A stretch of 64,000 bases of DNA from a virus. The position numbers were made by a program, and so were the translations under genes. The number at the start of each line of letters is the position of its first letter. Within the stretch, counting starts at the first letter, position 1. The notes beneath the pieces were generated by a model. The model worked only from the letters and a program-made list of their open reading frames with translations. It was not told the origin of the DNA and did not search any database. This document shows positions 895 through 26,512 of the stretch, piece by piece. The stretch covers positions 250,950 through 314,949 of the IMG/VR virus record IMGVR_UViG_3300020202_000061; one strand, given 5' to 3'.

Positions 895-897
895 TCC

Positions 898-5114: not shown

Positions 5115-5123
5115 GGAGGAATT

Positions 5124-5321: not shown

Positions 5322-5324
5322 TCC

Positions 5325-13305: not shown

Positions 13306-13316
13306 GGGCTATCATA

Positions 13317-14606
13317 GTGACCACGGTCATTGACAGACGTAAGACCGACCGCCAGAAGAACCTCTCCAATAGGCAGAGGTTCATCAAAAGAGCCAAGGAA
13401 GCGATCAAGAAGTCGATCCGTGGAGCCATCCTCAATAAGGATCGCTCGATCAAAGACTCATCCGGCGGTAATGTTCGAATCCCCAACAAAGGGACGACAG
13501 AGCCGAATTTCCGCAATGGAGACGGTGGTCGTAAGATCATCGTTCGTCCGGGTAATCCAGGCACTGTGCCGGGTGACAAGATTCCACGTCCCAGAAAGGA
13601 TCAGACTTCGGGCCGTGGTAACAGTGATCCATCCAAAGACCCCGCTGAGTTGATGGATGAGTTCGAGTTCACGCTGACCCGTGAGGAATTTCTGGACTTC
13701 TTCTTTGAGGACCTGGAATTGCCCAACTTGGTCAAGACCGCCCTCAAAGAGGTGGTCGAGTACAAATGGTCCCGTTCGGGATTTGCCTCGGTCGGTATGC
13801 CGTCGAATCTCGACATTACCCGAACCTTCATCAATTCGATGGGTCGCCATTTCGCTCTGGCCGGAGCCTACCAGAAAAAGATCGACGAACTTCGCGCTAA
13901 TGGTGGATCGGAAGAGGATATCGCGCTCTGGGAGAAGAGGAAGCGGACCATCCCGTTCATGGATGACGTGGACCTGCGCTATCGCCTGTTTGTGAAGCAG
14001 CCCAAGCCGATCACCAAAGCGGTAATGTTCTGTCTGATGGACGTATCTGGCAGTATGGGCGAGTACGAGAAGGACTTGGCCAAGCGTTTCTTCATGCTCC
14101 TCTACATGTTTCTGGAGCGCAAATACGAGTCGGTCACCGTGGTGTTCATCCGTCATACCACCGAAGCCAAAGAGGTGGACGAGCAGGAGTTCTTCTACTC
14201 GAAAGAATCAGGTGGAACCGTGGTCAGCACGGCTCTGGAAATGACTGCTGATCTGATTCAGCGGCGCTTCAACAGTTCAGACTACAACATCTACGTGAGC
14301 CAGTGTTCGGACGGCGACAATGCCTACGATGACAACTCCGTGTGCACCCAGATCATCCGTGAGGATATTCTGCCTTATGTCCAGTATTTTGCGTATGTCC
14401 AGGTCGGACATCAGCGCGATGAGATGGCCAACATGTGGGGTGTGTTTGCGGGTCGTCTTGGGAACACCACGAGCACGAATTCCCTCTACGAGGTTTATAA
14501 GGAGATCGAGAAGAATACCTCCCATTTCAAGGTGAAGAACCTGAATGGTCCTGCCGACATCTACCCGGTGTTTCGCGAACTCTTTGAGAAGGACATCAAG
14601 GTATGA
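13317..14606 (+). CDS. yeaH: YeaH/YhbH family protein (DUF444, UPF0229)
   Basis: VIDRRKTDRQKNLSNRQRF…EFLDFFFEDLELPNL…VMFCLMDVSGSM…FFYSKESGGTVVS…DIYPVFRELF colinear with E. coli YeaH. Confidence 0.85.
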   Translation: MTTVIDRRKTDRQKNLSNRQRFIKRAKEAIKKSIRGAILNKDRSIKDSSGGNVRIPNKGTTEPNFRNGDGGRKIIVRPGNPGTVPGDKIPRPRKDQTSGRGNSDPSKDPAELMDEFEFTLTREEFLDFFFEDLELPNLVKTALKEVVEYKWSRSGFASVGMPSNLDITRTFINSMGRHFALAGAYQKKIDELRANGGSEEDIALWEKRKRTIPFMDDVDLRYRLFVKQPKPITKAVMFCLMDVSGSMGEYEKDLAKRFFMLLYMFLERKYESVTVVFIRHTTEAKEVDEQEFFYSKESGGTVVSTALEMTADLIQRRFNSSDYNIYVSQCSDGDNAYDDNSVCTQIIREDILPYVQYFAYVQVGHQRDEMANMWGVFAGRLGNTTSTNSLYEVYKEIEKNTSHFKVKNLNGPADIYPVFRELFEKDIKV

Positions 14607-16093
14607 GCCTGCTCTGGAATGATAATGAATGGACTTTCCCGCTCATCGACAAGGTCTACAAGGAGATCGAGCAGATCGGCGTGGGTGAGATGGGTCTGGA
14701 CATCTTCCCGAATCAGATCGAGGTCATCAGCAGTGATCAGATGCTGGACGCTTATGCAAGCCATGCCATGCCAGTCATGTATAAGCACTGGTCCTTTGGC
14801 AAGTCGTATTCGGTCAACAAGAAACTCTATGAGAACGGTCAGCAGGGTCTGGCCTACGAGGTCGTAATCAACTCGAATCCCTGCATTGCCTATCTCATGG
14901 AGGACAACACCATGACCATGCAGGCTTTGGTCATGGCCCATGCCAGCATCGGTCACAACAACTTCTTCAAGACTAACTACCTGTTCCAGCAGTGGACCGA
15001 TCCGGATGGGATCATCGACTACCTGATCTTCGCCAAGAATTATGTGGCGAAGTGTGAGGAGCGATACGGTGCCGAACGAGTCGAGGAAGTTCTCGATTCC
15101 TGTCACGCTCTCATGGACCAGGGTATGGACCGCTTTAAGCGAGCCCGCAAACGTTCCCGTCAGGAGGAGAAGCTCCGTGCGGCCGAACGTGAAGCCTATC
15201 ACCAAAGTCGTGTGAGTGAGCTTTGGCCGGACACCTGGAAGTCCGAGACCCCGGCCCAGAAGGAAGAACGCAAGAAGCGGATTCTTCCGGAGCCCGAGGA
15301 CAACATCCTCTACTTCATCGAGAAGAACTCGCCGATCCTGGAGCCGTGGGAACGAGAGATCGTTCGTATCGTCCGTAAGGTATCGCAGTATTTCTGGCCT
15401 CAGATGCAGACCCAGGTCGGTAATGAGGGCTGGGCCACCCATACCCATTACTTCATTATGAATCGTCTCTACGAGAAGGGTCTGATCTCGGACGGTTCTC
15501 TGTTGGAGTTCTTCAAGTCCCACACGGGCGTTATCGCGCAGTATCGCATGCAGCGTCTGAACCCGTACTGCCTGGGATTCAACATTTTCCGCGACATCAA
15601 GCGTATGTGCGAGAAACCCACCGATGAGGATCGTGAATGGTTCCCCGATCTGGTCGGGATGAACTGGCTGGAAGCCGCGAAGGACGCGCGTGAGAACTAC
15701 AAGGATGAGAGCCTGATCCTCCAGTACCTCAGCCCCAAGGTGATCCGCGATCTTAAGCTTTTCTCGATCCTGGATGATTACGGCACGGACTCGATGAACT
15801 ATATCGTCCAGAACATCCACGACCGGGAAGGCTACAAGGAAGTTCGTCGATCCCTCTCTCGCAACTACGACATCAACATGAGAATTCCACAGATTCAGGT
15901 GTCGGATGTCAATGTGGATGGGGATCGCAAACTGATCCTTCGCCATACCCGTCACAACTATGTGCCGCTGGATCAGGCCGATCTCAAGGAAACTCTCCTC
16001 CATGTGAGGCGTCTCTGGGGGTTTGCGGTGCGTCTGGACTTCTACAATCCCGGCGCGGTCAGTCCCACGGATTGGGTAGCGGTGGGTGAATAA
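14603..16093 (+). CDS. spoVR: SpoVR/YcgB family protein
   Basis: 496 aa; conserved SpoVR stretches (MYKHWSFGKSY, GHNNFFK, GWATHTHY). Confidence 0.85.
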   Translation: MSLLWNDNEWTFPLIDKVYKEIEQIGVGEMGLDIFPNQIEVISSDQMLDAYASHAMPVMYKHWSFGKSYSVNKKLYENGQQGLAYEVVINSNPCIAYLMEDNTMTMQALVMAHASIGHNNFFKTNYLFQQWTDPDGIIDYLIFAKNYVAKCEERYGAERVEEVLDSCHALMDQGMDRFKRARKRSRQEEKLRAAEREAYHQSRVSELWPDTWKSETPAQKEERKKRILPEPEDNILYFIEKNSPILEPWEREIVRIVRKVSQYFWPQMQTQVGNEGWATHTHYFIMNRLYEKGLISDGSLLEFFKSHTGVIAQYRMQRLNPYCLGFNIFRDIKRMCEKPTDEDREWFPDLVGMNWLEAAKDARENYKDESLILQYLSPKVIRDLKLFSILDDYGTDSMNYIVQNIHDREGYKEVRRSLSRNYDINMRIPQIQVSDVNVDGDRKLILRHTRHNYVPLDQADLKETLLHVRRLWGFAVRLDFYNPGAVSPTDWVAVGE

Positions 16094-16388: not shown

Positions 16389-16417
16389 TTGACAATTCCA
16401 AGATTGCGGAATAAATA
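16389..16417 (+). promoter_or_regulatory. sigma70-like promoter driving tRNA-Ile/tRNA-Leu
   Basis: TTGACA 16389-16394; 17-nt spacer; TAAATA 16412-16417. Confidence 0.65.
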
Positions 16418-17003: not shown

Positions 17004-17244
17004 GGTGCATCCCAACGATACATTTATGCCCGTCTGAGATATGGAAGAGTTCCGCATCGTAATGGTGTTGAGGGCATAATGTGATTCCGTTCTCCTTCAC
17101 GTAGCCTCCGTTCGGCATGAGGCTGCGATCCGTAATATGGTGAGCGTCGAGATTCTTGGTTTCCGAACAGAATACGCACCTGTGGCCATCGCGGGCAAAC
17201 ACGGCGTCACGGAACTTCTGGCGGATCAGTTTCTTCTGGTTCAT
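16921..17244 (-). CDS. HNH homing endonuclease
   Basis: CVFCSETKNLDAHHI…NGITLCPQHH HNH zinc-finger motif. Confidence 0.75.
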   Translation of the reverse strand: MNQKKLIRQKFRDAVFARDGHRCVFCSETKNLDAHHITDRSLMPNGGYVKENGITLCPQHHYDAELFHISDGHKCIVGMHPNDLYAKIGSSHEKAVAASERLGGRDG

Positions 17245-17468
17245 AACACGATCCTCAAATCGGATTCACAGCATTCTTTCCAGGTCTTGTAATTGGCGTC
17301 GGGTGAACGTGGAGTTCCCCACCAATCCGGATGGTAAATCCCAAGAAACCGACCATCGATTTCCGAATGCCCGTTGGTGGTATATCCCCAGGATCGGGCG
17401 ATTCGCTCGTAGTCGGCCTCGATCAGTTTCTTCTTGGGCCGAGTAATCTGATGGAGTTCGTGGACCAT
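17241..17468 (-). CDS. hypothetical protein coupled to the HNH endonuclease
   Basis: internal ATG of ORF 17241..17801 (the upstream part would overlap tRNA-Trp); stop overlaps the HNH start (ATGA). Confidence 0.4.
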   Translation of the reverse strand: MVHELHQITRPKKKLIEADYERIARSWGYTTNGHSEIDGRFLGIYHPDWWGTPRSPDANYKTWKECCESDLRIVL

Positions 17469-17470
17469 GT

Positions 17471-17722
17471 CTATCTCCCGTTGATCTTTCCGCTGGTGAA
17501 GTCGTGGAACTGGAAGGTCCAGGCTACCGGGCAAACCCCGATCAGTGGGTGTGCCACACAATTGTGGGTGAACCACCAGAAATGATGCACCAGGAGTGAT
17601 TTCTTCAACAGCTTGAACAAACGGATGCGATAGTGGAATCGTTCTTGTGAGGTCTGGTGAGCAAAATCCATCTGGTCCCCCTTGGTTATTCCCAAGATAT
17701 CCGAGAAACCTCTTGACTTCAA
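17471..17722 (-). CDS. hypothetical protein
   Basis: ORF 83 aa; stop adjacent to the downstream start. Confidence 0.35.
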   Translation of the reverse strand: MKSRGFSDILGITKGDQMDFAHQTSQERFHYRIRLFKLLKKSLLVHHFWWFTHNCVAHPLIGVCPVAWTFQFHDFTSGKINGR

Positions 17723-17741
17723 GCAGGGGATTCGCTAAATA
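17713..17741 (+). promoter_or_regulatory. sigma70-like promoter driving the tRNA-Trp-like gene
   Basis: TTGACT 17713-17718; 17-nt spacer tcaagcaggggattcgc; TAAATA. Confidence 0.6.
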
Positions 17742-17764
17742 TCCCTCACAACGGATTGCTTTGC

Positions 17765-17840
17765 AGGCGTGTAGCTCAATTGGAAGAGCAGCGGCCTCCA
17801 AATCCGAAGGTTGGGGGTTCGAGTCCCTCCTCGCCTGCCA
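17765..17840 (+). tRNA. tRNA-Trp (CCA)-like with weak stems
   Basis: 76 nt ending gCCA; D-arm gctcaattggaagagc; T-arm gggggttcgagtccctc; anticodon loop ctCCAaa, but the anticodon stem has only 3 bp and the acceptor has one T·T mismatch. Confidence 0.5.
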
Positions 17841-17931
17841 AGCAATCCCATCTCGGGCCGCCTGCGTGACCGTTCCAGGAGGTAAGAGGCAAGGTCGTTA
17901 ATATGCCCCGCCCGATCTGAAAGGTTTCCTG

Positions 17932-18138
17932 ATGATTCTTGGTCTGAACACGAGCATTTCTGGAATGCTGGTGGGATTTACTCTGATCGGAATCGCATTG
18001 CTCGTGCCGGGTCCGGCCGGGTTTCATGCTCTCTGCATGATATTGGGAGCGGGTCTGGTTGGGGTTTGTGTCCTCCATTGGCTCGCTCTTGTCTTGGATC
18101 GATTGGTCAAACGCCTTCAAGGGAATCGTCCAAGATGA
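17932..18138 (+). CDS. small membrane protein
   Basis: ORF 68 aa, two hydrophobic helices. Confidence 0.45.
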   Translation: MILGLNTSISGMLVGFTLIGIALLVPGPAGFHALCMILGAGLVGVCVLHWLALVLDRLVKRLQGNRPR

Positions 18139-18392
18139 GTGGGGTTCCCTACTGGTTCAACGAACGTGTGAACAAGCCGATTCTGATCGAGGGGCGTGAA
18201 ACGATCTTGCGCGATGCCTACTGCGTGGGATGCCGCTATCACAGCCCGAACTCGGACGAACTCATCCTGGTCACCGACATGGGCGAGTTTAACACGTCCG
18301 ACCACAAGTTCGAGCTTCCACCCCTGACCAGGAAGAAACCCCGCAATAACCGGGCACCGGTTCGCGGTCCTCGGTCGATTTTGGGGCGCTAA
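18135..18392 (+). CDS. hypothetical protein
   Basis: ATG 18135 overlapping the upstream TGA. Confidence 0.45.
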   Translation: MSGVPYWFNERVNKPILIEGRETILRDAYCVGCRYHSPNSDELILVTDMGEFNTSDHKFELPPLTRKKPRNNRAPVRGPRSILGR

Positions 18393-18405
18393 CCCAAGAA
18401 TCTCC

Positions 18406-18434
18406 TTGACATATCCCGGAGTTTCCTGTAGACT
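18406..18434 (+). promoter_or_regulatory. sigma70-like promoter
   Basis: TTGACA 18406-18411; spacer tatcccggagtttcctg; TAGACT. Confidence 0.6.
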
Positions 18435-18441
18435 TCTGGAC

Positions 18442-18795
18442 ATGGCAGACACCTCCATCCGTAAGAGTTCCCATAAGAACGGCAAGATGCGAACCATTTA
18501 CGTGGGCACGCTGGGCCACTACATCGGCTACGGCTACTCGTGGCGTCCCGATAATGACGGGGGTCTGTTCTCGCGCAATTTCCGATACACCGACGTGGAC
18601 GTGTATATCCGCGTGGGTCGCCCCATTGACGACCTGGGTCGTGTGGCCCAGGAGACGGTCTTTGAAAAGACCGTAGGCACCGCGTTGAAATCGGGTCCCG
18701 CCGACAAGCTCGGCCGCGCCGGTATCCGCGAGGTTATCCAACCGCTCCTGCCGGAAATTATGGCCAAACTCACGGCCGAGGTCGCGGCCCTATGA
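18442..18795 (+). CDS. hypothetical protein
   Basis: ATG 18442 just after the promoter. Confidence 0.5.
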   Translation: MADTSIRKSSHKNGKMRTIYVGTLGHYIGYGYSWRPDNDGGLFSRNFRYTDVDVYIRVGRPIDDLGRVAQETVFEKTVGTALKSGPADKLGRAGIREVIQPLLPEIMAKLTAEVAAL

Positions 18796-19040
18796 GGCTG
18801 GAAATGACCAAGATCGACCGTCATCTTGAAGCCCGCCATGCCCGCCGGTTAGCGGCGGAAGATCGGTATTTGGCTCGCCGGGAACGGCTCGAAGCCAAAG
18901 CCGAACCCATGATCGGCGAACTATGTCGGGAAGGCACGACGGTCTACTATGTGTGGCCCCAGGGTGGTCGCTATCGTGAGTCCGCCAGCGAAACCGAACT
19001 CATCGAGTTTCTGATCCGCCGAGGATATGTGCATGACTGA
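18792..19040 (+). CDS. hypothetical protein
   Basis: ORF 82 aa, coupled. Confidence 0.45.
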   Translation: MRLEMTKIDRHLEARHARRLAAEDRYLARRERLEAKAEPMIGELCREGTTVYYVWPQGGRYRESASETELIEFLIRRGYVHD

Positions 19041-19425
19041 AATCCCTAAGATTGAGGTCGTGCGCGAGCACTATCGTATCCAACGCGAGAAGCAGAAGGC
19101 CGCGAGAGATCGCTATCTGTCCGACCGCTATGAAGCCGTACGAAAGGATCAGGCAGAAATTCGCCGCGATATAGGCGACCAGATTACTTACTACCTGAAT
19201 GAGGCTACCGAGCGCGGTGAGCCCATCACCTATATCATCTATCGGCGCTGGAAAGTTCACATGGATGAGGGCACTACTCTCGCCATGATGAAGATTTTTG
19301 GACCCGAATTGGAAGCAGCCGGATACGAAGTGATGCCGGTCGATGGCGGACTCCGAATTGATTGGCTGATCCAGGTCCAACCGGATCAGGCCGCTGATTG
19401 GGAAAAGGACAAGGTGCTACCATGA
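19027..19425 (+). CDS. hypothetical protein
   Basis: ORF 132 aa. Confidence 0.5.
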   Translation: MCMTEIPKIEVVREHYRIQREKQKAARDRYLSDRYEAVRKDQAEIRRDIGDQITYYLNEATERGEPITYIIYRRWKVHMDEGTTLAMMKIFGPELEAAGYEVMPVDGGLRIDWLIQVQPDQAADWEKDKVLP

Positions 19426-19922
19426 GCAAGCTGCTCGAAGGCAGTCTGGTTACTTGGAATGTGGAACCCCCGGTCCAAGGGCGGGTCATCGAGGTCACCA
19501 TCGATCTGGACGGCGATCTATGGGCAAGCCTGTCGTTCCGAGGCAATGACAAGGACGTGAAGGTTCTGGTCGAAGAAGATGTCCTCCTCCTCGACGGAAC
19601 CCCGACCGATGAAATGCTCTGGGATGGCTCCCTGACCACCAACGTGGGCAAGCGGTTCTACGGCTGGGACGGCGCGACCTACCGGTGCATCGCCCACAAT
19701 GATCGTGGCTACCTGATGGAGCCCGAGATCATCACCGGGAGCAATCCCACCCCTCGGTCCATCACCGAACGCGCCATCGGCGGCACTTTCTTCGAGATCG
19801 CCAAGGACGGCCGGGTCAAGGGCCTGCTTGGTGCACCGAACTGCCTGGAGTCGCGCCCGCTGTCCCGTGAGAATTTCCAGGTCGCCTGCAAGGTCCGGAA
19901 GGACAACGGAGTCACCGCATGA
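19422..19922 (+). CDS. hypothetical protein
   Basis: ATG 19422 overlaps upstream stop. Confidence 0.5.
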   Translation: MSKLLEGSLVTWNVEPPVQGRVIEVTIDLDGDLWASLSFRGNDKDVKVLVEEDVLLLDGTPTDEMLWDGSLTTNVGKRFYGWDGATYRCIAHNDRGYLMEPEIITGSNPTPRSITERAIGGTFFEIAKDGRVKGLLGAPNCLESRPLSRENFQVACKVRKDNGVTA

Positions 19923-20089
19923 GCAAGTACACGTTCCAGGTCGAAAAGACCATCTACCCGTTTGGTCCGAAGGACCCGGTCGAGGAGAAATTCGAGATCG
20001 TCATCGAGGCACGGACGTTGGAGGCCGCCGGTATTCGTGCCTCCAATATCGGGAAGGAACTCGGCCTGATGCTGGTCTACCACGGCTGA
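19919..20089 (+). CDS. hypothetical small protein (56 aa)
   Basis: ATGA-coupled ATG 19919; TGA 20087-20089. Confidence 0.3.
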   Translation: MSKYTFQVEKTIYPFGPKDPVEEKFEIVIEARTLEAAGIRASNIGKELGLMLVYHG

Positions 20090-20093
20090 GCCA

Positions 20094-20243
20094 ATGGTAG
20101 AACGAGGCGACAAGATCACCCTGAAAGAGGCGATTGCGGAAGCGCAACGCGGAACTCTGAAACAGCGAGTCGCCCGACATCGCAAACGCCTGAAACGCAA
20201 GTATGGACTCGGACCCAAGCCGAAACGCTCCAAAACCCCTTGA
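20094..20243 (+). CDS. hypothetical small basic protein (49 aa)
   Basis: ATG 20094; Lys/Arg-rich; 3' end runs into the tRNA promoter. Confidence 0.25.
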   Translation: MVERGDKITLKEAIAEAQRGTLKQRVARHRKRLKRKYGLGPKPKRSKTP

Positions 20244-20268
20244 CATCCTCGGGGTTATCCTCTAAATA
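20240..20268 (+). promoter_or_regulatory. sigma70-like promoter driving the class II tRNA (CGT)
   Basis: TTGACA 20240-20245; spacer tcctcggggttatcctc; TAAATA. Confidence 0.65.
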
Positions 20269-20277
20269 CCCCGTTAT

Positions 20278-20363
20278 GCCGGGATGGCTGAGTGGTCGAA
20301 AGCAGGCGTTTCGTAAGCGTCCGAAGCAATTCCTCGCAGGTTCGAATCCTGTTCCCGGCTCCA
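20278..20363 (+). tRNA. class II (Ser-type scaffold, long variable arm) tRNA with anticodon CGT
   Basis: 86 nt; acceptor gccggga/tcccggc; Ser-like D-arm tggctgagtggtcgaaagc; anticodon stem ggcgt/gcgtc with loop ttCGTaa; variable arm about 15 nt; T-arm gcaggttcgaatcctgt; CCA. Confidence 0.7.
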
Positions 20364-20501
20364 ATCCATGATCATCAGGATCAAATCCCCCATATTGTTG
20401 CGGATTTTCGGTTGGAATAATCCAACCCTGCCGAGCCACGTCACGGCCAGTCATCGGCTGTGGTGGTTCTGGCTGCTCCGGCGTGACAAAAGGAAACGCA
20501 A

Positions 20502-21026
20502 ATGAACGTGATCAAACCACCGCGTCCACTGACAGGGATTGATGAGTTTTTACCCATCTTGTTCCTGGCCGGGACCATCGACATGGGCGATTCCGTGGAT
20601 TGGCAGGCTGATACCGCCACCCGTCTCAAGCAGTATCCGGGCACCATCCTGAATCCGCGTCGTGACGCCTGGGACAAGTCCTGGAACCAGGACATTAACA
20701 ATCCTGAGTTTGCGTATCAGGTCAATTGGGAACTCGATGGTCTGGACATGGCCACGCTGATCCTGATCAACTTCGAACCGGATTCGAAGTCCCCGATCTC
20801 ATTGTTGGAGCTAGGGCTCCACGCGAATGACCGTGGTCTGATCGTGCGCTGCCCCAAGGGCTATTGGCGTAAGGGTAACGTGGACATCGTCTGCGCCCGC
20901 CATCGTGTGCCGGTCTATGAGGACCTGGATCAAGCCGTGGCCGAGATCACGGTGCGTCTGCAAGCCCAACAGAAATCAATTACCAGTTTCTACCACCAGA
21001 TGGCCGTGGACACAGGTCAGGCATAG
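20502..21026 (+). CDS. hypothetical protein (possibly nucleoside 2-deoxyribosyltransferase-like)
   Basis: ORF 174 aa; LAGTIDMG-type N-terminal motif; weak assignment. Confidence 0.45.
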   Translation: MNVIKPPRPLTGIDEFLPILFLAGTIDMGDSVDWQADTATRLKQYPGTILNPRRDAWDKSWNQDINNPEFAYQVNWELDGLDMATLILINFEPDSKSPISLLELGLHANDRGLIVRCPKGYWRKGNVDIVCARHRVPVYEDLDQAVAEITVRLQAQQKSITSFYHQMAVDTGQA

Positions 21027-21991
21027 ACCTCGGCATCGTGATTCGGTGCGGTGTCGAAGATCGACAACTCCGTGATCGTCTTGAGCACGGTCAGACCGAG
21101 GTCCTCTCTCAGGTGATAGAGCATGGTCTTGAGGTTGTCATCGTAGGCCGACTTCGTGATTCCCGCGTGCCTATAGGTGAGGATCAGCGGAGCGTTCTGC
21201 TTGGCACGGTTGACCGACATGAACAGGGCGTAGCGTTCCTGATCTTCATCCTTGAAGGAGAGATCGACAGCCTGTCGGATGATATCCTCCGCTCCGGGCG
21301 TGACGATCTCGATATGGGTTTCCAGATACACACCGGGCTCTCCGCCCACGGGCTTCCCCTCGGTCTCTAACTGCTTGATGATGGGATGCCAGGGTAGAGT
21401 CTCGATCTTTTGTCGAACCACATTGAGCATGGTATGGCGAGTGAGATCGTAGACCAGCTTCGTCATCACATCCATGGCTTCCTGCTGGGTTCCGAACACC
21501 ACCTTCGAACACATCACATCGGCCTTGAACGGGTCATACCCACGAAGCACATGATAGGGCTCGATATCCAGGCATTTCATCTCGTTTCGGAAACAGAAGT
21601 CTCGGAACGCAAATAACACCTCTTCGTGATTCAACACTTCCGAACCCACCGTGATGTGAATCTCGAACGGGATGGGAAACTTGACGGTGCCTTCCTGTGC
21701 CTGTAAACCGCTCCACTTATTCATTTTTGTGCGAAGCATGTCGTCGAGGTCTTGATCGTTGAACCCGAGCGAGTATCCGATGCTGAGTGCGGCCAGGATC
21801 ACATCCGCAACTTCATCCAGGACGTGATGACGTGAGGTCAATCGGTGCAGGGTGTCGGGTGCGCCCTCCAGTGGGAGAATGGCCTGATTGAGTTCACCAG
21901 TTTCGGCCGCCAGCTTGTTACCCTTCTGACCGAGTGTCTTACGGTCGCGCTCGGTGAGAACCTTGATGAAATCCAGAGTTTCCTGACGCAT
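21017..21991 (-). CDS. MazG-like nucleotide pyrophosphohydrolase domain protein with a C-terminal extension of unknown function
   Basis: N-terminal all-alpha MazG-like region (KVLTERDRKTLGQKGNKLAAETGELNQAI…LDEVADVILAAL); 324 aa on the minus strand. Confidence 0.55.
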   Translation of the reverse strand: MRQETLDFIKVLTERDRKTLGQKGNKLAAETGELNQAILPLEGAPDTLHRLTSRHHVLDEVADVILAALSIGYSLGFNDQDLDDMLRTKMNKWSGLQAQEGTVKFPIPFEIHITVGSEVLNHEEVLFAFRDFCFRNEMKCLDIEPYHVLRGYDPFKADVMCSKVVFGTQQEAMDVMTKLVYDLTRHTMLNVVRQKIETLPWHPIIKQLETEGKPVGGEPGVYLETHIEIVTPGAEDIIRQAVDLSFKDEDQERYALFMSVNRAKQNAPLILTYRHAGITKSAYDDNLKTMLYHLREDLGLTVLKTITELSIFDTAPNHDAEVYA

Positions 21992-22041
21992 ATTTGTTTC
22001 CCCTTCTGGAGGAAACTGTTCGAAACTCTCGAAGAGTCAAG

Positions 22042-22070
22042 TTGACGCCTAGGGATTTCATCTGATAGGA
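22042..22070 (+). promoter_or_regulatory. putative sigma70-like promoter
   Basis: TTGACG 22042-22047; spacer cctagggatttcatctg; ATAGGA. Confidence 0.4.
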
Positions 22071-22099
22071 TCGGAATTCAACAATTGGGGGAGGTTCAA

Positions 22100-22276
22100 A
22101 TGGAGCTTCAAGGCGGGGTTCGTGTTCGCACCCGAAACGGTGCGTACCTGATCGAGCAGGGCAACACCACCAGGATAGTCAAGTTGAAACCGGGCGAATC
22201 CGTCGAGGTTGTTCCGGGTTTCACCATCTCGGCTCCGGCCGAGATCGACGTGGTGATCCATGAGGCTCATCAATGA
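22100..22276 (+). CDS. hypothetical small protein
   Basis: ATG 22100 with RBS ggggaggt. Confidence 0.4.
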   Translation: MELQGGVRVRTRNGAYLIEQGNTTRIVKLKPGESVEVVPGFTISAPAEIDVVIHEAHQ

Positions 22277-22500
22277 AACGACCCCAGACGTGGGTCATCC
22301 TGGGTCTGATCGGTGCGATTGCGGTCTACCTCTATCAGAGCCAGAACAGTTACATGCTGGACCCCGACAACATCCGCTATACGCGTGATTCCCGCACTGG
22401 ACTCTGCTACGCCTATGTGGGAACCAGCCTCGGCTTTCAGAAATCCGTGGGACTGACCCAGGTTCCGTGCTCAGTTCTGACGGACCAGAGCAGCCGCTGA
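22273..22500 (+). CDS. small membrane-anchored protein
   Basis: ORF 75 aa; N-terminal TM WVILGLIGAIAVYLY. Confidence 0.45.
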   Translation: MKRPQTWVILGLIGAIAVYLYQSQNSYMLDPDNIRYTRDSRTGLCYAYVGTSLGFQKSVGLTQVPCSVLTDQSSR

Positions 22501-23141
22501 TCGAGTATCTGGCACGGACTTATTGATGGTCCCGTTGGGCTGATGTATCTCAAACACAAAACCTACGGCTGATTCTTCCAGATACTGGATTAACTGGATG
22601 AGGACCTTCTTCACCTGGGGTGTAATCTTACCCTGAATGAACTCCAGATCGAGTTCACCACGAGTCGTATAGATGCCACGAACCCAGCCATGCTCCATGG
22701 CAATACGGTTCCAATCGGTGCCATCCTCGTTGTAGTCGTCATCTCCGTATCCGAATGCCTGAAATGCCGCATCCTCGTGGTGACCAGCCGGAGGAACCCA
22801 ACCGTATGTTCCCTGCGCGGTAATCCAAAACATACCATGGTCCATGACACGATGGATATCCTCGAACCCAGATTGCGCAATCTGACGGTCGTGCCAATCA
22901 ACTCCTCCCAATGCGGCGATGCGCCTTTCGAGTTGAATGATCTTTCGAGTTGAATGATCATTGATTTGTAGTAGTCGATCTTGTTCTGATCGCGTGTTGG
23001 TATGATCTTCTCGATCATCTCACTACGATACGCTCGCAGCGCGTTTTTGATCACGGCTTCATCCTCCCGCCTCAGAATTTCCTGAAAGGTTGGACGATTA
23101 GGCAAAAACTGTTCGGTTAGGTCACGAAGTTCCATGCTCAT
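22471..23141 (-). pseudogene. hypothetical protein gene frameshifted by a 17-bp tandem duplication
   Basis: ORFs 22611..23141 and 22471..22911 lie in frames differing by 2; the offset is exactly accounted for by the 17-nt duplicated unit; deleting one copy gives a continuous product of about 213 aa. Confidence 0.6.
22926..22959. repeat. perfect 17-bp tandem duplication (tttcgagttgaatgatc x2)
   Basis: read directly from the sequence at 22926-22942 and 22943-22959. Confidence 0.9.
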
Positions 23142-23149
23142 ATTTATGC

Positions 23150-23178
23150 TTGAAACCCCAGGGTAAATCCGCTAAGTA
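23150..23178 (+). promoter_or_regulatory. sigma70-like promoter
   Basis: TTGAAA 23150-23155; spacer ccccagggtaaatccgc; TAAGTA. Confidence 0.5.
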
Positions 23179-23185
23179 TTCCCCG

Positions 23186-23506
23186 ATGCGGTATAGCCTT
23201 TTCCTGGACGACGAACGACATCCTCCTGCCGGACGGTGGGAGATCGCCCGTACTGTGGCCCAGGCCATCGAAATCGTCAAACAAAAGGGATTTCCGCAGT
23301 TCGTGAGCTTTGACCACGATCTGGGGTATGATGCCAACCTGGGTCTGCAAAGGACCGGTATGGACTTCGCCCGCTGGCTGGTGGAGCTTGATCTCGAAAC
23401 CAACCGAATGCCGGACGGTTTCCAGTACTACGTTCACTCTCAGAATCCCGTGGGTGTAGAAAACATCCGTGGTCTACTGGATTGCTATCTGAGAGTGCGC
23501 GGATGA
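23186..23506 (+). CDS. hypothetical protein
   Basis: ATG 23186 after the promoter; 106 aa. Confidence 0.5.
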   Translation: MRYSLFLDDERHPPAGRWEIARTVAQAIEIVKQKGFPQFVSFDHDLGYDANLGLQRTGMDFARWLVELDLETNRMPDGFQYYVHSQNPVGVENIRGLLDCYLRVRG

Positions 23507-23519
23507 AAGCGAGGTTATC

Positions 23520-24134
23520 ATGGGTACGCGTCATTCAATTCTGGTTCAGGTGAACGACGATTACAAGGTGGCCAATTACGGTCAATGGGATGGTTATCCG
23601 AGCGGTCAAGGAACGGGTATCCTCCATTTCCTCGCGGAGGAAATGGACCTGGAGAAGTTCACCGAAGCGGTTCGACACTGCACCGAGATCACCCATGAAC
23701 GTCTTGAGGAAATCTGGCTCTCGATGGGTGCTCGCAAAGACGGTGATAGTTACATGATGGGATCGAATGCGAGCGACAAGTTTCAGCTCGAATATCCACA
23801 TCTGCACCGTGACTGTGGTTCCGACATCCTCAAGATGATCCAGGATGCGGGCGGACTCGAACTCAAAATCGACAAGACATTCCCGGCCGATTCCCTGTTC
23901 TGCGAGTGGGCCTACGTGATCGATTTGGACAAGGGCACGTTCGAGGTCTACGAGGGCTTCAACGAAACACCCCTTGACCCGCAGGAGCGATTTGCCACCC
24001 TGGTGGGTCCGCAAGATCGTCGCAGTGAATACCACCCGTGTCGATTCAAGTACGCATGGCCACTCTCGGCCTTGCCCACTCAGGAGGAGTTCCTCGCCAT
24101 TCTGGAACCACCCGAGGAAGAGACAACGGAATAA
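23520..24134 (+). CDS. hypothetical protein
   Basis: ORF 204 aa. Confidence 0.55.
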   Translation: MGTRHSILVQVNDDYKVANYGQWDGYPSGQGTGILHFLAEEMDLEKFTEAVRHCTEITHERLEEIWLSMGARKDGDSYMMGSNASDKFQLEYPHLHRDCGSDILKMIQDAGGLELKIDKTFPADSLFCEWAYVIDLDKGTFEVYEGFNETPLDPQERFATLVGPQDRRSEYHPCRFKYAWPLSALPTQEEFLAILEPPEEETTE

Positions 24135-24137
24135 TCT

Positions 24138-24857
24138 ATGCCTGATCAGGACGTTCCGTATCCGGGCTGGCCCGAGTTCGAGTATGTCTGTGATAGCGCC
24201 AACTCGGGCAGTCACGGACCTGCTTTCTGCGGGCTTGGTCCGGGGCCGGATTGTCCCTGGTGCCAGCGCAAGGTCGTGATGACGCCGGAATGGGAAGCAT
24301 TCATCGCGGACACCCCAAATCGCCATCAGCGTATCGCTGAGGCCGTGCTGGGAAATCCCGAGGTCAAAGCCTCACTCCGTCGTCATTCCCGTTTCAACCG
24401 TGGTGAATCCCAGGAGCGCATGATGAATGCCGCAATCGACAGCACCGATATTCAACCAATCGCCATCGGCACACCATCAACCAACATCACCAAGGCCGAT
24501 CTTCAACGTGAGGAAGCGAAGTTCCAGCAGTTCAAGAAGGATCGCGGCATCAATAACGAGGTCGAGGCGTTGATCGCAAGCATCCAAGAGAGTCATACTG
24601 CGGCGGTGACGTTCGACGACTCCATGAAACCCTCAACCGAGGAACGCATGAATCGCATCCGCAAGAGTCGTGCGGAAATGGCCAGCTATGATCTGGACAT
24701 CGAGGCATTAACCCGACAGATCACCGATGACATCGCCGCTCGTCAGGACAAGGCCGCCGCCATCACCCGAACGGCTCAGAAAGAACTTCGTCGGATGCAA
24801 CGCCGAGTGTTCTGGACCCTTGTTAAGGACACGATCATCCGCTGGTTCCGTCGATGA
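24138..24857 (+). CDS. hypothetical protein
   Basis: ORF 239 aa; Cys cluster CGLGPGPDCPWC. Confidence 0.55.
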   Translation: MPDQDVPYPGWPEFEYVCDSANSGSHGPAFCGLGPGPDCPWCQRKVVMTPEWEAFIADTPNRHQRIAEAVLGNPEVKASLRRHSRFNRGESQERMMNAAIDSTDIQPIAIGTPSTNITKADLQREEAKFQQFKKDRGINNEVEALIASIQESHTAAVTFDDSMKPSTEERMNRIRKSRAEMASYDLDIEALTRQITDDIAARQDKAAAITRTAQKELRRMQRRVFWTLVKDTIIRWFRR

Positions 24858-24961
24858 TCACCGCTAACGATAACCACCGATCTCTGGCGGAAATCCTCAA
24901 TGATATCCACACCAGAAGGCGACGTGAATCTCTGACCCAACGCGTTCTGGGAAGATTCCTC

Positions 24962-24990
24962 TTGATTTTGAGCCGGATCACGCGTAAATA
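24962..24990 (+). promoter_or_regulatory. sigma70-like promoter driving the class II tRNA (TGT)
   Basis: TTGATT 24962-24967; 17-nt spacer; TAAATA 24985-24990. Confidence 0.55.
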
Positions 24991-24998
24991 AGAACTGC

Positions 24999-25084
24999 GC
25001 CAGGATGGCTGAGTGGCCGAAAGCAGAGCCTTTGTAACGCTCCGGGGAAACCCCACGCAGGTTCGAATCCTGTTCCTGGCTCCA
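24999..25084 (+). tRNA. class II (Ser-type scaffold) tRNA with anticodon TGT; paralog of the 20278 gene
   Basis: 86 nt; acceptor gccagga/tcctggc; D-arm tggctgagtggccgaaagc; anticodon stem gagc(c)/(c)gctc with loop ttTGTaa; long variable arm; T-arm gcaggttcgaatcctgt; CCA. Confidence 0.7.
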
Positions 25085-25092
25085 ATATTCCC

Positions 25093-25121
25093 TTGACATA
25101 TCCTAGGGTTTCTGGTAGACT
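25093..25121 (+). promoter_or_regulatory. sigma70-like promoter
   Basis: TTGACA 25093-25098; spacer tatcctagggtttctgg; TAGACT. Confidence 0.6.
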
Positions 25122-25146
25122 CCTCTTGCAATTCAGGAGGATACCG

Positions 25147-25431
25147 ATGGTCACCGAAGCCCAACTCAACGACTTCATCGCGGGTTGCAGCCGGATTTCC
25201 GGCTCGGACTATTCCTTCTCTTTCGACAACTCCAAGGGTTCCAAGTTCGTTCGGATCGTTCGCGAGGGCGGATGCCAGCGTTCGGTCCACTGCTTCATCG
25301 ACCGCCAAACCGGCGACGTGCTCAAGGCGGCGGGCTGGAAGGCCCCGGCCAAGCATGCCCGTGGCAACCTGTTCGACGCCAAGCAGGGCCTGGGCCTGAT
25401 GGGTCCGTATGGCCCGGCCTATCTGAGGTAG
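25147..25431 (+). CDS. hypothetical protein
   Basis: ATG 25147 with RBS aggagg. Confidence 0.5.
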   Translation: MVTEAQLNDFIAGCSRISGSDYSFSFDNSKGSKFVRIVREGGCQRSVHCFIDRQTGDVLKAAGWKAPAKHARGNLFDAKQGLGLMGPYGPAYLR

Positions 25432-25433
25432 CC

Positions 25434-25664
25434 ATGGCCCGAACCCCCACCGATGATCAATTCAACACGGCCATTGCGTGGCTCCAGGCGAACGAAGCCG
25501 ACACCAACGATGGTTACGATGAGAAGGCCGCCTGCGAGGCAGTCGCGGCGTGGCTCGACGAGTACCGGTTCAACCAGATGCTCCGGGAGAAGGCCCGCGA
25601 ATTGGGCGTTCCCGTGTCGGCGGTCCGGAAGCGGATCAAGGAAATGGAAAAGGCGAAAGGATAA
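25434..25664 (+). CDS. hypothetical protein
   Basis: ATG 25434; 76 aa. Confidence 0.45.
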   Translation: MARTPTDDQFNTAIAWLQANEADTNDGYDEKAACEAVAAWLDEYRFNQMLREKARELGVPVSAVRKRIKEMEKAKG

Positions 25665-25668
25665 AGCC

Positions 25669-25839
25669 ATGTACCGGCATGAACCCGAACGCCACTACCT
25701 GAGCCAGTCCCTGGGTCTGTGGTGGGTCCGCAAAGGCGACATCAATCCGGCTCTGGAAGGGCCGTTCATGGACGCGGCGGATGCCCGCGAGCAGACGGAC
25801 GAGCCCGGTCGGGTTCTGATCAACCAGGGACCGCGCTGA
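25669..25839 (+). CDS. hypothetical small protein
   Basis: ATG 25669; 56 aa. Confidence 0.4.
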   Translation: MYRHEPERHYLSQSLGLWWVRKGDINPALEGPFMDAADAREQTDEPGRVLINQGPR

Positions 25840-26240
25840 TGCTGACCTGGGTCAAGAACGGCGACACCATGGAGGGCACTTTCGAGGGCCGACTCCGGTT
25901 CACTGTCCAGAAAGAGGGCAAAATCTGGACAATGTGGCGCTGGCGTTACCTGCCGGGCGGGTCAGATCGTCCAGATGGCGCTGTGTTCCAGGCCAAGGAA
26001 AAGGTCAACTCCCAGCAGGACGGCATCGAGTACGCGAATGTCTTGCACAAGAACGCCTATGGGCCGGAACGCGACAAGCAAGAGAAGGCCAAGGTGGAAT
26101 TCTACGACCAGTGGGATCGGCTGCACACGGCGATCCAGAGCATGCTCTGTGCGAACGTCGAGAACATGACGGCGCGGGCTGAGAAGCTCGAACAGGAGCG
26201 GCAGGCCATGGTCAAGGTGATCAATACGAGGAAGTCATGA
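25839..26240 (+). CDS. hypothetical protein
   Basis: ATG 25839 overlapping upstream TGA; 133 aa. Confidence 0.5.
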   Translation: MLTWVKNGDTMEGTFEGRLRFTVQKEGKIWTMWRWRYLPGGSDRPDGAVFQAKEKVNSQQDGIEYANVLHKNAYGPERDKQEKAKVEFYDQWDRLHTAIQSMLCANVENMTARAEKLEQERQAMVKVINTRKS

Positions 26241-26512
26241 AGGCTGGTATGCTCAGGAATACTGCAACCGGACGGTTCCATCCGATCCTGTTCCACCCCG
26301 CGCCGTTCCCTGGCCAGACCGGTGATCTGCCCATCGGCAGCGTCATGCGTTATCGATCCATCGGTCATCACACCGAGGGGTTTTCGACCTTGGATGAGGC
26401 ACTGGCCCACGTCAAGACGACCTACCCCGGCTATACCCTGCTGGAGGGTATCGACGAGTGGGACGGCCAGGATGTTCCGGCCTCAACCATATTCCTTCCG
26501 GTGCTCACATGA
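26237..26512 (+). CDS. hypothetical protein
   Basis: ORF 91 aa. Confidence 0.45.
   Translation: MKAGMLRNTATGRFHPILFHPAPFPGQTGDLPIGSVMRYRSIGHHTEGFSTLDEALAHVKTTYPGYTLLEGIDEWDGQDVPASTIFLPVLT

What the first reader, a model, noticed from the sequence alone, without database searches (positions are those of the whole stretch)
20278..20363. Class II Ser-scaffold tRNA carrying a Thr anticodon (CGT), with its own promoter
The gene has a serine-type D-arm (tggctgagtggtcgaaagc) and a long variable arm, but its anticodon loop reads ttCGTaa. It also carries the acceptor features used by ThrRS (G1-C72, C2-G71, G35, U36). A paralog at 24999-25084 reads ttTGTaa, with compensatory changes at three anticodon-stem pairs (28:42 G·T to A-T, 29:41 C-G to G-C, 30:40 G-C to C-G). 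That covariation argues both are functional and that the anticodon register is correct. Ser-type bodies reading ACG/ACA resemble engineered or allo-tRNAs and could cause Thr-to-Ser ambiguity or some other recoding during infection. Each gene has a private consensus promoter.
Basis: seen in the sequence. Interest (0 to 1): 0.85.

Follow-up and report, generated by a model that had tools for sequence, protein, structure and literature searches.

The report
Long-armed threonine tRNAs of a phage
Two genuine tRNA genes in a giant phage read threonine codons but carry the long extra arm normally found only in serine, leucine and tyrosine tRNAs; they belong to a large family of such tRNAs in phages and some bacteria that I could not find described, and they most likely insert threonine, not serine.

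Summary
ARAGORN and Rfam/Infernal both call window 20278-20363 (anticodon CGT) and 24999-25084 (TGT) as 86-nt tRNAs in the stated register, each with a 14-nt variable arm.

They are not one-off oddities. The same type of tRNA-Thr occurs in about 100 GenBank T5-like phages, in Aeromonas T4-like phages, in at least 98 IMG/VR phage contigs, and on chromosomal contigs of Eremiobacterota.

Across 99 distinct members, the acceptor end (G1-C72 96%, C2-G71 99%, N73 mostly U) matches ordinary short-armed phage tRNA-Thr. It differs from tRNA-Ser (G2-C71, A3-U70, G73), tRNA-Leu and tRNA-Tyr (A73). The extra arm has a 3-4 bp stem with a 3' tail, like tRNA-Tyr and unlike tRNA-Ser. Only the D arm is Ser-like.

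In T5 relatives the long-armed gene sits exactly where T5 has its short-armed tRNA-Thr(UGU). In phage Bas33 it is the only tRNA-Thr.

Best reading: these are working tRNA-Thr isoacceptors charged by ThrRS. Thr-to-Ser recoding is unlikely. The extra arm may protect against tRNA-cleaving host defences, but that is untested.

Each gene does have its own promoter, TTGAC(A/T)-N17-TAAATA, a type used by this phage's tRNA genes.

The parts
20240..20268 (+). Promoter-like site TTGACA-N17-TAAATA, ending 9 nt before the tRNA 5' end
   Evidence: one of 7 TTGAC[AT]-N17-TAAATA sites, all on the + strand, 6 of them ending 6-24 nt upstream of a tRNA. The site is conserved in relative L195. Promoter activity is inferred, not shown.
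20278..20363 (+). Class II tRNA-Thr(CGU), 86 nt, encoded CCA, U73
   Evidence: ARAGORN. Rfam tRNA 51.8 bits. The ortholog in L195 is 81/86 identical with compensatory changes.
20312..20314 (+). Anticodon CGT (positions 34-36), reads ACG
   Evidence: ARAGORN and Infernal agree on the register. Sequence read.
20322..20335 (+). Variable arm C-GAA-GCAA-UUC-CUC: 3-bp stem, GNRA tetraloop, 3-nt 3' tail
   Evidence: Parsed. The same architecture is found in 99 family members, with 61 distinct complementary stems.
24962..24990 (+). Promoter-like site TTGATT-N17-TAAATA, ending 8 nt before the tRNA 5' end
24999..25084 (+). Class II tRNA-Thr(UGU), 86 nt, encoded CCA, U73, C31.C39 mismatch
   Evidence: ARAGORN. 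Rfam tRNA 49.5 bits. A non-standard 31:39 pair occurs in 16 of 90 family members.
25033..25035 (+). Anticodon TGT, reads ACA (and ACG by wobble)
25043..25056 (+). Variable arm C-GGGG-AAA-CCCC-AC: 4-bp stem, triloop, 2-nt 3' tail
   Evidence: RNAfold forms this hairpin in the minimum-free-energy structure.

Best explanation
Both genes are working threonine tRNAs of an unusual structural type, with a long (class II) variable arm. The phage supplies them to read ACG and ACA codons during infection.

Shown:
- They fold as 7/5 cloverleaves with a 3-bp D stem, a G15-C48 Levitt pair and a short variable hairpin.
- They belong to a large family with strong covariation.
- The family's acceptor end is indistinguishable from that of ordinary tRNA-Thr.
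- They sit behind the tRNA-type promoter of this phage.

Inferred:
- Host ThrRS charges them with threonine through G1-C72, C2-G71, G35 and U36. SerRS, LeuRS and TyrRS do not charge them, because their determinants are absent.
- They keep ACG/ACA decoding going when host tRNA-Thr(UGU/CGU) is scarce or destroyed, for example by anticodon-stem nucleases such as PARIS AriB.

Speculative (about 0.3): the extra arm itself, which emerges next to the 40|41 cleavage site, is what protects against such nucleases.
For: 1. Real tRNAs in the stated register.

2. Large family:
- 72-115 GenBank phage records, mostly T5-like, annotated tRNA-Thr.
- 13 IMG/VR loci found with a D-arm pattern.
- Class II Thr(CGU) examples in L061, L063, L075, L191 and L195.
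- Bacterial contigs, of which the two whose flanking genes were checked (Eremiobacterota L018 and L024) sit among housekeeping genes; L024 lies beside a Tyr-Gly-Thr(GGU) tRNA cluster.

3. Acceptor signature in 99 distinct class II Thr: 1:72 G-C 96%, 2:71 C-G 99%, N73 U 80 / A 15 / C 4. In 39 class I Thr from the same loci: 97%, 92%, U 31 / A 6 / C 2. By contrast, Ser has G2-C71 96%, A3-U70 83% and G73 79%; Leu has A73 100% and A15-U48 100%; Tyr has A73 97%. The search patterns did not constrain the acceptor stem.

4. Covariation on 90 distinct cores: 94.2% of cells paired against 67.4% in shuffles, and 542 double-change cells against 173. Pair 2:71 is invariant and 1:72 is 89/90, while pairs 3-7 vary freely. 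The Levitt pair covaries between G15-C48 and A15-U48.

5. Variable arm geometry: a 3-bp stem in 64 of 99 members and 3-4 unpaired 3' nt. This matches Tyr, not Ser, which has 5-6 bp and 1 nt.

6. Same-locus exchange: T5 has a 75-nt class I Thr(UGU) directly after the T5.060/T5.059 ORF pair. Phages ende and Bas33 have the 87-nt class II gene there, with identical upstream sequence.

7. Bas33 (HildyBeyeler, MZ501074.1) has this gene as its only tRNA-Thr and lacks tRNA-Lys(UUU). PMC12409363 reports that AriB cleaves E. coli tRNA-Thr(UGU), and that supplying T5 tRNA-Lys(UUU) alone rescues Bas33 from PARIS. So the Bas33 class II tRNA-Thr must decode ACA acceptably under attack. This is my inference, not the paper's statement.

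8. Ortholog in L195: 94% identical against 70-77% in the flanks, with compensatory changes.

9. ThrRS identity rests on acceptor-stem pairs and anticodon nucleotides, with a weak role for N73. Bacterial tRNA-Ser conserves G1-C72 and G2-C71 (PMC9976931).
Against: - No aminoacylation, expression or decoding data exist for these two genes or, directly, for any family member.
- The D arm is closest to tRNA-Ser D arms, and SerRS is reported to read overall tertiary shape rather than specific bases (PMC9976931). Some serylation therefore cannot be excluded.
- It is unknown whether ThrRS, a class II synthetase, tolerates a long variable arm.
- The UGU gene has a C31.C39 mismatch.
- The host is unknown, so the host ThrRS rules are assumed to be like those of E. 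coli and Thermus.
- The Bas33 argument is indirect, and one laboratory stock of Bas33 carries a deletion that reaches this gene.
- The anti-defence role of the arm rests only on context. The window carries Asn(GUU), Lys(UUU), Thr(UGU) and Thr(CGU), which is the AriB target set. UAAUC at positions 36-40 is kept in 53 of 91 class II Thr(UGU) against 2 of 10 class I, but that sample is small and non-independent.
Confidence: 0.75

Rival explanations
1. One reading: SerRS charges these tRNAs through the long arm. They then insert serine at ACG/ACA, giving deliberate Thr-to-Ser ambiguity or recoding during infection.
For: - Class II body with a Ser-like D arm, 1-3 edits from phage tRNA-Ser D arms.
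- SerRS ignores the anticodon and reads the variable arm and tertiary shape (PMC9976931).
- A single A36U change turns a Ser UGA or CGA anticodon into UGU or CGU, a plausible origin (my inference).
Against: - The family has C2-G71 (99%), never A3-U70, and essentially never G73. These are the opposite of tRNA-Ser and identical to class I tRNA-Thr.
- The variable stem is 3-4 bp with a 2-4 nt 3' tail, against 5-6 bp and 1 nt in Ser.
- It replaces the class I Thr(UGU) at the same T5-type locus and is the only tRNA-Thr of Bas33.
- It occurs on chromosomal contigs of bacteria.
- ACG plus ACA are about 37% of Thr codons in the window, so the proteome cost would be high.
- ThrRS has a known editing activity against Ser-tRNA-Thr (established knowledge, not tested here).
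Confidence: 0.08
2. The tRNAs are made but do not serve mainly in decoding. Instead they act as decoys or inhibitors that soak up a tRNA-targeting defence nuclease or toxin.
For: - PMC12409363 raises the possibility that over-expressed viral tRNAs inhibit AriB.
- The window carries the full AriB target set.
- Many family members keep the UAAUC target motif.
Against: - Anticodon, U33, A37, T loop, CCA and the ThrRS acceptor pairs are conserved as in decoding tRNAs.
- It is the only tRNA-Thr in a full phage tRNA complement.
- It is chromosomal in some bacteria.
Confidence: 0.07
3. They are ordinary tRNA-Thr and the long arm has no adaptive role. It would be a neutral structural variant spread among phages by gene exchange.
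For: - Class I and class II forms are exchangeable at one locus.
- Long arms also occur sporadically in phage tRNAs of many other isotypes, including Cys, Trp, Ile, Pro and Gln, not only in known nuclease targets.
- Streptomyces has both type I and type II tRNA-Leu charged by one LeuRS (PMC6614811, seen). This shows that arm type can change without an identity change.
Against: - The arm is maintained with compensatory changes (61 distinct stems, often GNRA-capped) across very distant phages and bacteria. This argues for selection on the hairpin itself.
Confidence: 0.35
4. LeuRS or TyrRS charges them, because class II bodies with short arms are typical of tRNA-Leu and tRNA-Tyr.
For: - The variable arm geometry equals that of tRNA-Tyr.
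- G1-C72 and C2-G71 also occur in many tRNA-Leu.
Against: - The window genes have U73 and G15-C48. All 42 Leu have A73 and A15-U48, and 28 of 29 Tyr have A73.
- The anticodon is not GUA.
- A73 is crucial for E. coli LeuRS (PMC9976931).
Confidence: 0.02

Closest known systems
Ordinary (class I) bacterial and phage tRNA-Thr, e.g. phage T5 tRNA-Thr(UGU) T5t03
   Same: - Thr anticodons, U33, A37.
- G1-C72 and C2-G71.
- 3:70 is C-G or U-A; N73 is U, A or C in the same proportions.
- Same genomic slot in T5-type phages.
   Different: - A 14-nt (family range 11-20 nt) hairpin variable arm instead of 4-5 nt.
- A 3-bp D stem with unpaired 13:22, and a longer D loop with 20a/20b.
Bacterial and phage tRNA-Ser
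   Same: - Class II architecture.
- D arm sequence.
- C11-G24 and G15-C48.
   Different: - Acceptor stem: C2-G71 against G2-C71; no A3-U70.
- U/A73 against G73.
- Variable stem 3-4 bp with a 2-4 nt 3' tail, against 5-6 bp with 1 nt.
- Anticodon.
Bacterial tRNA-Tyr
   Same: Variable arm geometry: about 3 bp, with 3-4 unpaired nt on the 3' side.
   Different: - A73, G2-C71 and the GUA anticodon in Tyr.
- Different D arm.
allo-tRNAs (8/4 and 9/3 tRNAs; Mukai et al., PMC5389517)
   Same: - Long-armed tRNAs carrying unexpected anticodons.
- Found in phages and soil bacteria such as Acidobacteria.
   Different: - allo-tRNAs have 8/4 or 9/3 acceptor/T stems and Ser or Ala identity elements.
- These genes are 7/5 with Thr acceptor elements.
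Nematode nev-tRNAs (class II tRNAs with Gly or Ile anticodons, charged with Leu); recalled from memory, not checked here
   Same: A class II body combined with an anticodon of a class I family.
   Different: - nev-tRNAs keep the identity of their scaffold (Leu) and therefore mistranslate.
- Here the acceptor identity matches the anticodon.
AriB-resistant tRNAs of phage T5 (PMC12409363)
   Same: - Phage-encoded Lys(UUU), Thr(UGU) and Asn(GUU) isoacceptors that replace host tRNAs cut by a defence nuclease.
- The window carries the same set plus Thr(CGU).
   Different: - T5's own tRNA-Thr is class I and escapes by base changes near 39-41.
- The class II form, and any role of the arm, is not discussed in that paper (0 occurrences of 'variable').

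Membership tests
tRNA (Rfam RF00005) | Cloverleaf scoring above the curated gathering threshold | tested here: met
   51.8 and 49.5 bits against 29. Also called by ARAGORN.
tRNA-Thr (ThrRS substrate) | Anticodon NGU with G35 and U36 | tested here: met
   CGU and UGU in a register agreed by two tools.
tRNA-Thr (ThrRS substrate) | Acceptor pairs G1-C72 and C2-G71 | tested here: met
   Read from the sequence. In the family they are 96% and 99%, the same as class I Thr.
tRNA-Thr (ThrRS substrate) | Short (4-5 nt) variable loop, as in all described tRNA-Thr | tested here: not met
   14-nt hairpin arm.
tRNA-Thr (ThrRS substrate) | Charged with threonine by ThrRS | not testable with these tools
   Only indirect support: locus replacement and the Bas33/PARIS rescue.
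tRNA-Ser (SerRS substrate) | Long variable arm of Ser type (5-7 bp stem, 0-1 unpaired 3' nt) | tested here: not met
   3 and 4 bp stems with 3 and 2 unpaired 3' nt. Phage Ser have 5-6 bp and 1 nt.
tRNA-Ser (SerRS substrate) | G2-C71 (with A3-U70) and G73 | tested here: not met
   C2-G71, C3-G70 and U73.
tRNA-Ser (SerRS substrate) | Ser-type D arm (3-bp stem, 20a/20b) | tested here: met
   1-3 edits from phage tRNA-Ser D arms.
allo-tRNA | 8/4 or 9/3 acceptor/T-stem configuration | tested here: not met
   7/5 by Infernal, RNAfold and family covariation.
tRNA-Leu | A73 and an A15-U48 Levitt pair | tested here: not met
   U73 and G15-C48.
Bacterial tRNA-Tyr | A73 and the GUA anticodon | tested here: not met
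   U73 with CGU or UGU anticodons. Only the arm geometry matches.
Class II tRNA-Thr family delineated here | NGU anticodon, G1-C72/C2-G71, U/A73, 11-20 nt hairpin variable arm with a 3' tail, 7/5 stems | tested here: met
   Both genes fit all features. Their nearest relatives are L195, L022, L088 and L194.

The most novel reading that the evidence does not exclude
[quoted passage not shown] By placing a hairpin beside the 3' strand of the anticodon stem, phage tRNA-Thr keeps its ThrRS identity but becomes a poor substrate for host anticodon-stem nucleases such as PARIS AriB, which cuts between positions 40 and 41. The same device is seen in some phage tRNA-Asn, tRNA-Lys and other tRNAs. This would be a way of escaping tRNA-targeting immunity that does not require changing the target sequence. 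It would also mean that tRNA class is evolutionarily plastic under immune pressure.
Probability: 0.3. Interest if true: 0.8.

Novelty: new variant of a known kind. Interest (0 to 1): 0.6.

Why it matters
Textbook tRNA biology reserves the long variable arm for Leu, Ser, bacterial Tyr and Sec. Here a long-armed tRNA-Thr turns out to be common in phage tRNA arrays and present on bacterial chromosomes of at least one phylum. It keeps the threonine acceptor signature.

None of the nine literature searches found it described. The genes are simply labelled tRNA-Thr in GenBank.

Three questions become directly testable:
- Can ThrRS accommodate a class II tRNA?
- How does SerRS reject a class II tRNA that has a Ser-like D arm?
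- Does the arm protect phage tRNAs from defence nucleases? Bas33 with PARIS offers a ready experimental system.

For genome annotation, it warns against calling such genes chimeric or recoding tRNAs from the scaffold alone.

Tried and rejected
- Megablast of window 19000-26500 against GenBank phages found no match. The window is a distant jumbo-phage relative, with PolB only about 33% identical to its best hits.
- A protein-based search for relatives with ORF 24138-24857 in IMG/VR found none.
- The relaxed D-arm pattern GARTGGYYGAANGNNNNNNNNYTNGTAA gave 35 new loci, none of them a tRNA.
- Three of the long 'Thr(cgt)' calls from the TTCGTAA scan (L066, L068, L069) have atypical acceptor ends. 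They were left out of the covariation set.
- Alternative anticodon registers (Ser NGA, or Tyr GUA by a one-base shift) were considered and rejected. Both tools agree on the register, and the shifted stems do not pair.
- PHROGs and Pfam scans of neighbouring ORFs gave only unknown-function families and a MazG-like protein. No aaRS lies near the genes.
- The class II tRNA-Thr was searched in 5,426 complete E. coli genomes and not found, so it is not host-derived in enterobacteria.
- Literature searches for a description of long-armed tRNA-Thr and three reviews or papers gave nothing.
- The extra Rfam-only tRNA at 41121-41190 was checked as a possible class I Thr. It reads GAU (Ile) with C33.
- Single-sequence RNAfold z-scores are weak (-1.0 and -1.7), as is usual for tRNAs, and were not used as evidence.

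Full report

Yes. ARAGORN finds 17 tRNA genes in the window. They include tRNA-Thr(cgt) at 20278-20363 and tRNA-Thr(tgt) at 24999-25084, each 86 nt with an encoded CCA.

Rfam's tRNA covariance model scores them at 51.8 and 49.5 bits against a gathering score of 29. It uses the same anticodon register and places a 12-13 nt insertion in the variable region.

Reading the sequence directly gives:
- Acceptor stems GCCGGGA/UCCCGGC and GCCAGGA/UCCUGGC, so G1-C72 and C2-G71.
- Discriminator U73.
- D arm UGGCUGAGUGG(U/C)CGAAAGCA, with a 3-bp stem and G13.A22.
- Levitt pair G15-C48.
- Anticodon loops UUCGUAA and UUUGUAA.
- Variable regions C-GAA-GCAA-UUC-CUC and C-GGGG-AAA-CCCC-AC.

The two genes are 69/86 identical. 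They also include a compensated 4:69 pair and a fully re-paired variable stem. The UGU gene has a C31.C39 mismatch. A non-standard 31:39 pair is seen in 16 of 90 family members.

**2. Genomic setting**

The window is from a jumbo-type phage with no close sequenced relative:
- No megablast hit.
- Family B DNA polymerase about 33% identical to Sinorhizobium phage Phosso, Ralstonia RsoM2USA, Salicola SCTP-2 and the E. coli 121Q group.
- A PrkA/DUF444/SpoVR trio at 11326-16093.

Genes next to the two tRNAs have no known function, apart from a MazG-like ORF.

A promoter scan shows 16 plus-strand TTGA[CT][AT]-N16-18-TAnnn[TA] sites, against 3.2 +/- 1.7 in shuffles and one on the minus strand. Seven of them have the -10 hexamer TAAATA. 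Six of those end 6-24 nt before a tRNA 5' end (Asn 259, Ile 16423, Trp 17765, Thr 20278, Thr 24999, Ser 29650). Sites before protein genes have TAGACT, TAGAAT or TATAAT.

So each Thr gene does have its own promoter, of the class this phage uses for tRNA units. Activity is inferred. The window holds no other tRNA-Thr. The one Rfam-only tRNA (41121-41190) reads GAU.

**3. These tRNAs belong to a large family**

A sensitive BLAST of the CGU gene against GenBank phages found full-length 72% matches in 72 records. Nearly all are T5-like Demerecviridae, and the match is annotated tRNA-Thr. ARAGORN calls it an 87-nt tRNA-Thr(tgt). Searching with that gene finds 115 records, including Aeromonas T4-like phages PX29 and Ah1.

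Pattern scans extended the family:
- A D-arm-plus-anticodon pattern found 13 IMG/VR loci and 8 loci in bacterial MAGs.
It yielded 98 further long tRNA-Thr(tgt).
- The CGT version yielded true class II Thr(CGU) in L061, L063 and L075.
- The metagenome scan added L191/L193, L192, L194 and L195.

Two Eremiobacterota loci are chromosomal. L024 holds CysRS, an ECF sigma factor and a PIN-TRAM protein, with the tRNA lying beside a Tyr-Gly-Thr(GGU) cluster. L018 holds a Rieske oxygenase, an amine oxidase and a hydrolase. The 'Legionella' locus L023 is really T4-like phage DNA.

No copy exists in 5,426 complete E. coli genomes.

**4. A close relative confirms selection**

L195 is an 8.3-kb metagenome contig. 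It is collinear with window 17141-24316 at 70-77% nucleotide identity.

Its tRNA-Thr(CGU) is 81/86 identical to the window gene. Four of the five changes are the compensated pairs 6:67 and 7:66. The TTGACA-N17-TAAATA promoter is also kept.

**5. What identity do they carry?**

I parsed all distinct tRNAs ARAGORN found in the fetched loci and compared identity positions.

| Group | n | 1:72 | 2:71 | 3:70 | N73 | 15:48 |
|---|---|---|---|---|---|---|
| Class II Thr | 99 | G-C 96% | C-G 99% | C-G or U-A | U 80, A 15, C 4 | G-C 75, A-U 21 |
| Class I Thr | 39 | G-C 97% | C-G 92% | C-G or U-A | U 31, A 6, C 2 | G-C 17, A-U 12 |
| Ser | 71 | G-C 85% | G-C 96% | A-U 83% | G 79% | G-C 41, A-U 16 |
| Leu | 42 | G-C 50% | mixed | mixed | A 100% | A-U 100% |
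| Tyr | 29 | G-C 69% | G-C 83% | G-C 72% | A 97% | mixed |

The long-armed Thr tRNAs therefore carry the acceptor signature of tRNA-Thr and none of the others. The search patterns did not touch the acceptor stem.

A formal pair count was made on 90 distinct 60-nt cores:
- 94.2% of cells are paired, against 67.4% in shuffles.
- There are 542 double-change cells, against 173.
- Pair 2:71 is invariant and 1:72 is 89/90, while pairs 3-7 vary freely. That pattern is expected for identity elements.
- 13:22 is unpaired in 82 of 90, the class II type of D stem.

The Levitt pair switches between G15-C48 and A15-U48 in step.

According to the identity review PMC9976931:
- Threonine identity rests on acceptor-stem pairs and anticodon nucleotides, with little role for N73.
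- Bacterial tRNA-Ser conserves G1-C72 and G2-C71, and SerRS reads the variable arm and overall shape.
- E. coli LeuRS needs A73.

**6. What kind of body is it?**

It is a mosaic.
- The D arm is closest to tRNA-Ser. For the window genes it is 1-3 edits from phage tRNA-Ser D arms. The family mean minimal distance is 4.3 to Ser, 5.3 to Tyr, 5.7 to class I Thr and 7.0 to Leu.
- The variable arm is not Ser-like. It has a 3-bp stem in 64 of 99 members (2-4 bp in 96%), usually a tetraloop (often GNRA), one unpaired 5' nt and 3-4 unpaired 3' nt. This matches tRNA-Tyr (3 bp, 3-4 nt). tRNA-Ser has 5-6 bp and one 3' nt.
- Sixty-one distinct complementary stems show that the hairpin is selected.
- The stems are 7/5, so these are not allo-tRNAs (PMC5389517).

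**7. Functional evidence from T5-type phages**

Phage T5 has a 75-nt class I tRNA-Thr(UGU), T5t03, immediately after the ORF pair T5.060/T5.059. Phages ende and Bas33 have the 87-nt class II gene in exactly that slot, after the homologous 252/165-nt ORF pair and with the same upstream sequence. In Bas33 (phage HildyBeyeler, MZ501074.1) it is the only tRNA-Thr in a complement of 27 annotated tRNA genes, and Lys(UUU) is absent.

PMC12409363 reports three relevant results:
- The PARIS nuclease AriB cleaves E. coli tRNA-Lys(UUU), Thr(UGU), Asn(GUU) and, weakly, Thr(CGU) between positions 40 and 41.
- Bas33 and Bas34 encode either Thr(UGU) or Lys(UUU) but not both.
- Supplying T5 tRNA-Lys(UUU) alone rescues Bas33.

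By inference, the Bas33 class II tRNA-Thr supports ACA decoding while the host tRNA is being cut. It does so although its positions 36-41 (UAAUCA) are identical to the E. coli target. The paper does not mention the arm.

The window phage carries Asn(GUU) twice, Lys(UUU), Lys(CUU), Thr(UGU) and Thr(CGU). Its two Thr genes have UAAGCG and UAACGC at positions 36-41.

**8. Load on the proteome**

In a crude ORF set from the window, Thr codons are ACC 49%, ACG 27%, ACU 14% and ACA 10%. The two tRNAs would therefore serve about 37% of Thr codons. That makes a serine-inserting role costly.

**9. Verdict**

The most likely account (0.75) is that these are working tRNA-Thr isoacceptors of a long-armed structural type. 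They would be transcribed from tRNA-type promoters, charged by host ThrRS, and used to secure ACG/ACA decoding during infection.

Why the arm exists is open:
- A shield against anticodon-stem nucleases is attractive (about 0.3). UAAUC is kept at positions 36-40 in 53 of 91 class II Thr(UGU), against 2 of 10 phage class I. Long arms also appear on phage Asn(GUU) and Lys tRNAs.
- Long arms also occur on Cys, Trp, Ile, Pro and Gln tRNAs. A neutral or different role is therefore equally possible.
- Thr-to-Ser mistranslation is not excluded, but it conflicts with every identity feature that could be examined (0.08).

**10. Novelty**

The genes are new members of a family whose sequences are already public and annotated as tRNA-Thr. 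I found no paper that describes a class II tRNA-Thr. The evidence is nine full-text searches, two reviews and the allo-tRNA paper. Absence from the searchable library is not proof of absence.

I rate it a new variant of a known kind, with moderate to high interest for tRNA and phage-defence specialists.

Noticed in passing
window 29650-29737: RNAfold folds tRNA-Ser(GGA), which has U73, with an 8-bp acceptor stem, a 5-bp D stem, a 6-bp variable stem and a 4-bp T stem. This is an '8/4' tRNA-Ser of the kind reported for phages in PMC5389517. It is the gene in this window that actually resembles allo-tRNAs.
   Followed up: partly
window 213-241, 16389-16417, 17713-17741, 20240-20268, 24962-24990, 29611-29639, 40272-40300: A tRNA-specific promoter class, TTGAC(A/T)-N17-TAAATA, often followed by (C/T)CC. 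All seven sites are on the + strand. Six end 6-24 nt before a tRNA 5' end. Protein genes use TAGACT, TAGAAT or TATAAT as the -10 hexamer.
   Followed up: partly
window 41121-41190: Rfam finds a tRNA (41.4 bits) that ARAGORN misses. Its anticodon loop is CCGAUAA, which reads GAU (Ile) with C instead of U at position 33. It may be a degenerate extra tRNA-Ile copy.
   Followed up: partly
L005 97-179, L016 6595-6677, L011 3228-3309, L190 9551-9636 and other loci listed: Long variable arms also occur on phage tRNAs of other normally short-armed families: Asn(GUU) 10, Ile(UAU) 7, Cys 5, Trp 4, Lys 4, Met 3, Pro 2, Gln 2. Each keeps its own discriminator base. T5-like phages carry long-armed Asn(GUU) as well as Thr(UGU), and both are targets of the PARIS nuclease AriB.
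   Followed up: partly
L195 (FRDC01000556.1) 1-8314: This metagenome contig is collinear with window 17141-24316 at 70-77% identity. It is the only relative of this phage found, and it keeps tRNA-Thr(CGU), tRNA-Trp and the tRNA promoter.
   Followed up: yes
L024 7236-7699; L018 5871-5952; L019; L025: Long-armed tRNA-Thr(UGU) genes were found in Eremiobacterota and Acidobacteriaceae MAG contigs. Flanking genes were checked only for L018 and L024, and both are housekeeping or metabolic. In L024 the gene sits divergently next to a Tyr-Gly-Thr(GGU) cluster. Whether it is the only UGU isoacceptor of these bacteria could not be checked.
   Followed up: partly
window 11326-16093: A PrkA kinase, a DUF444 (YeaH-like) protein and SpoVR are encoded in a row on the phage.
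   Followed up: no
L023 (contig labelled Legionella MAG), 802-2721 and 5103-5458: The contig encodes T4 gp32-like and gp59-like proteins and a permuted tmRNA-like gene. It is phage DNA binned into a bacterial MAG.
   Followed up: no
L009 14-88; L008 9365-9440: In other phage arrays, ARAGORN reports a tRNA with a four-base anticodon (tcta) and a CUA (amber-reading) tRNA. These are possible frameshift or stop suppressors.
   Followed up: no
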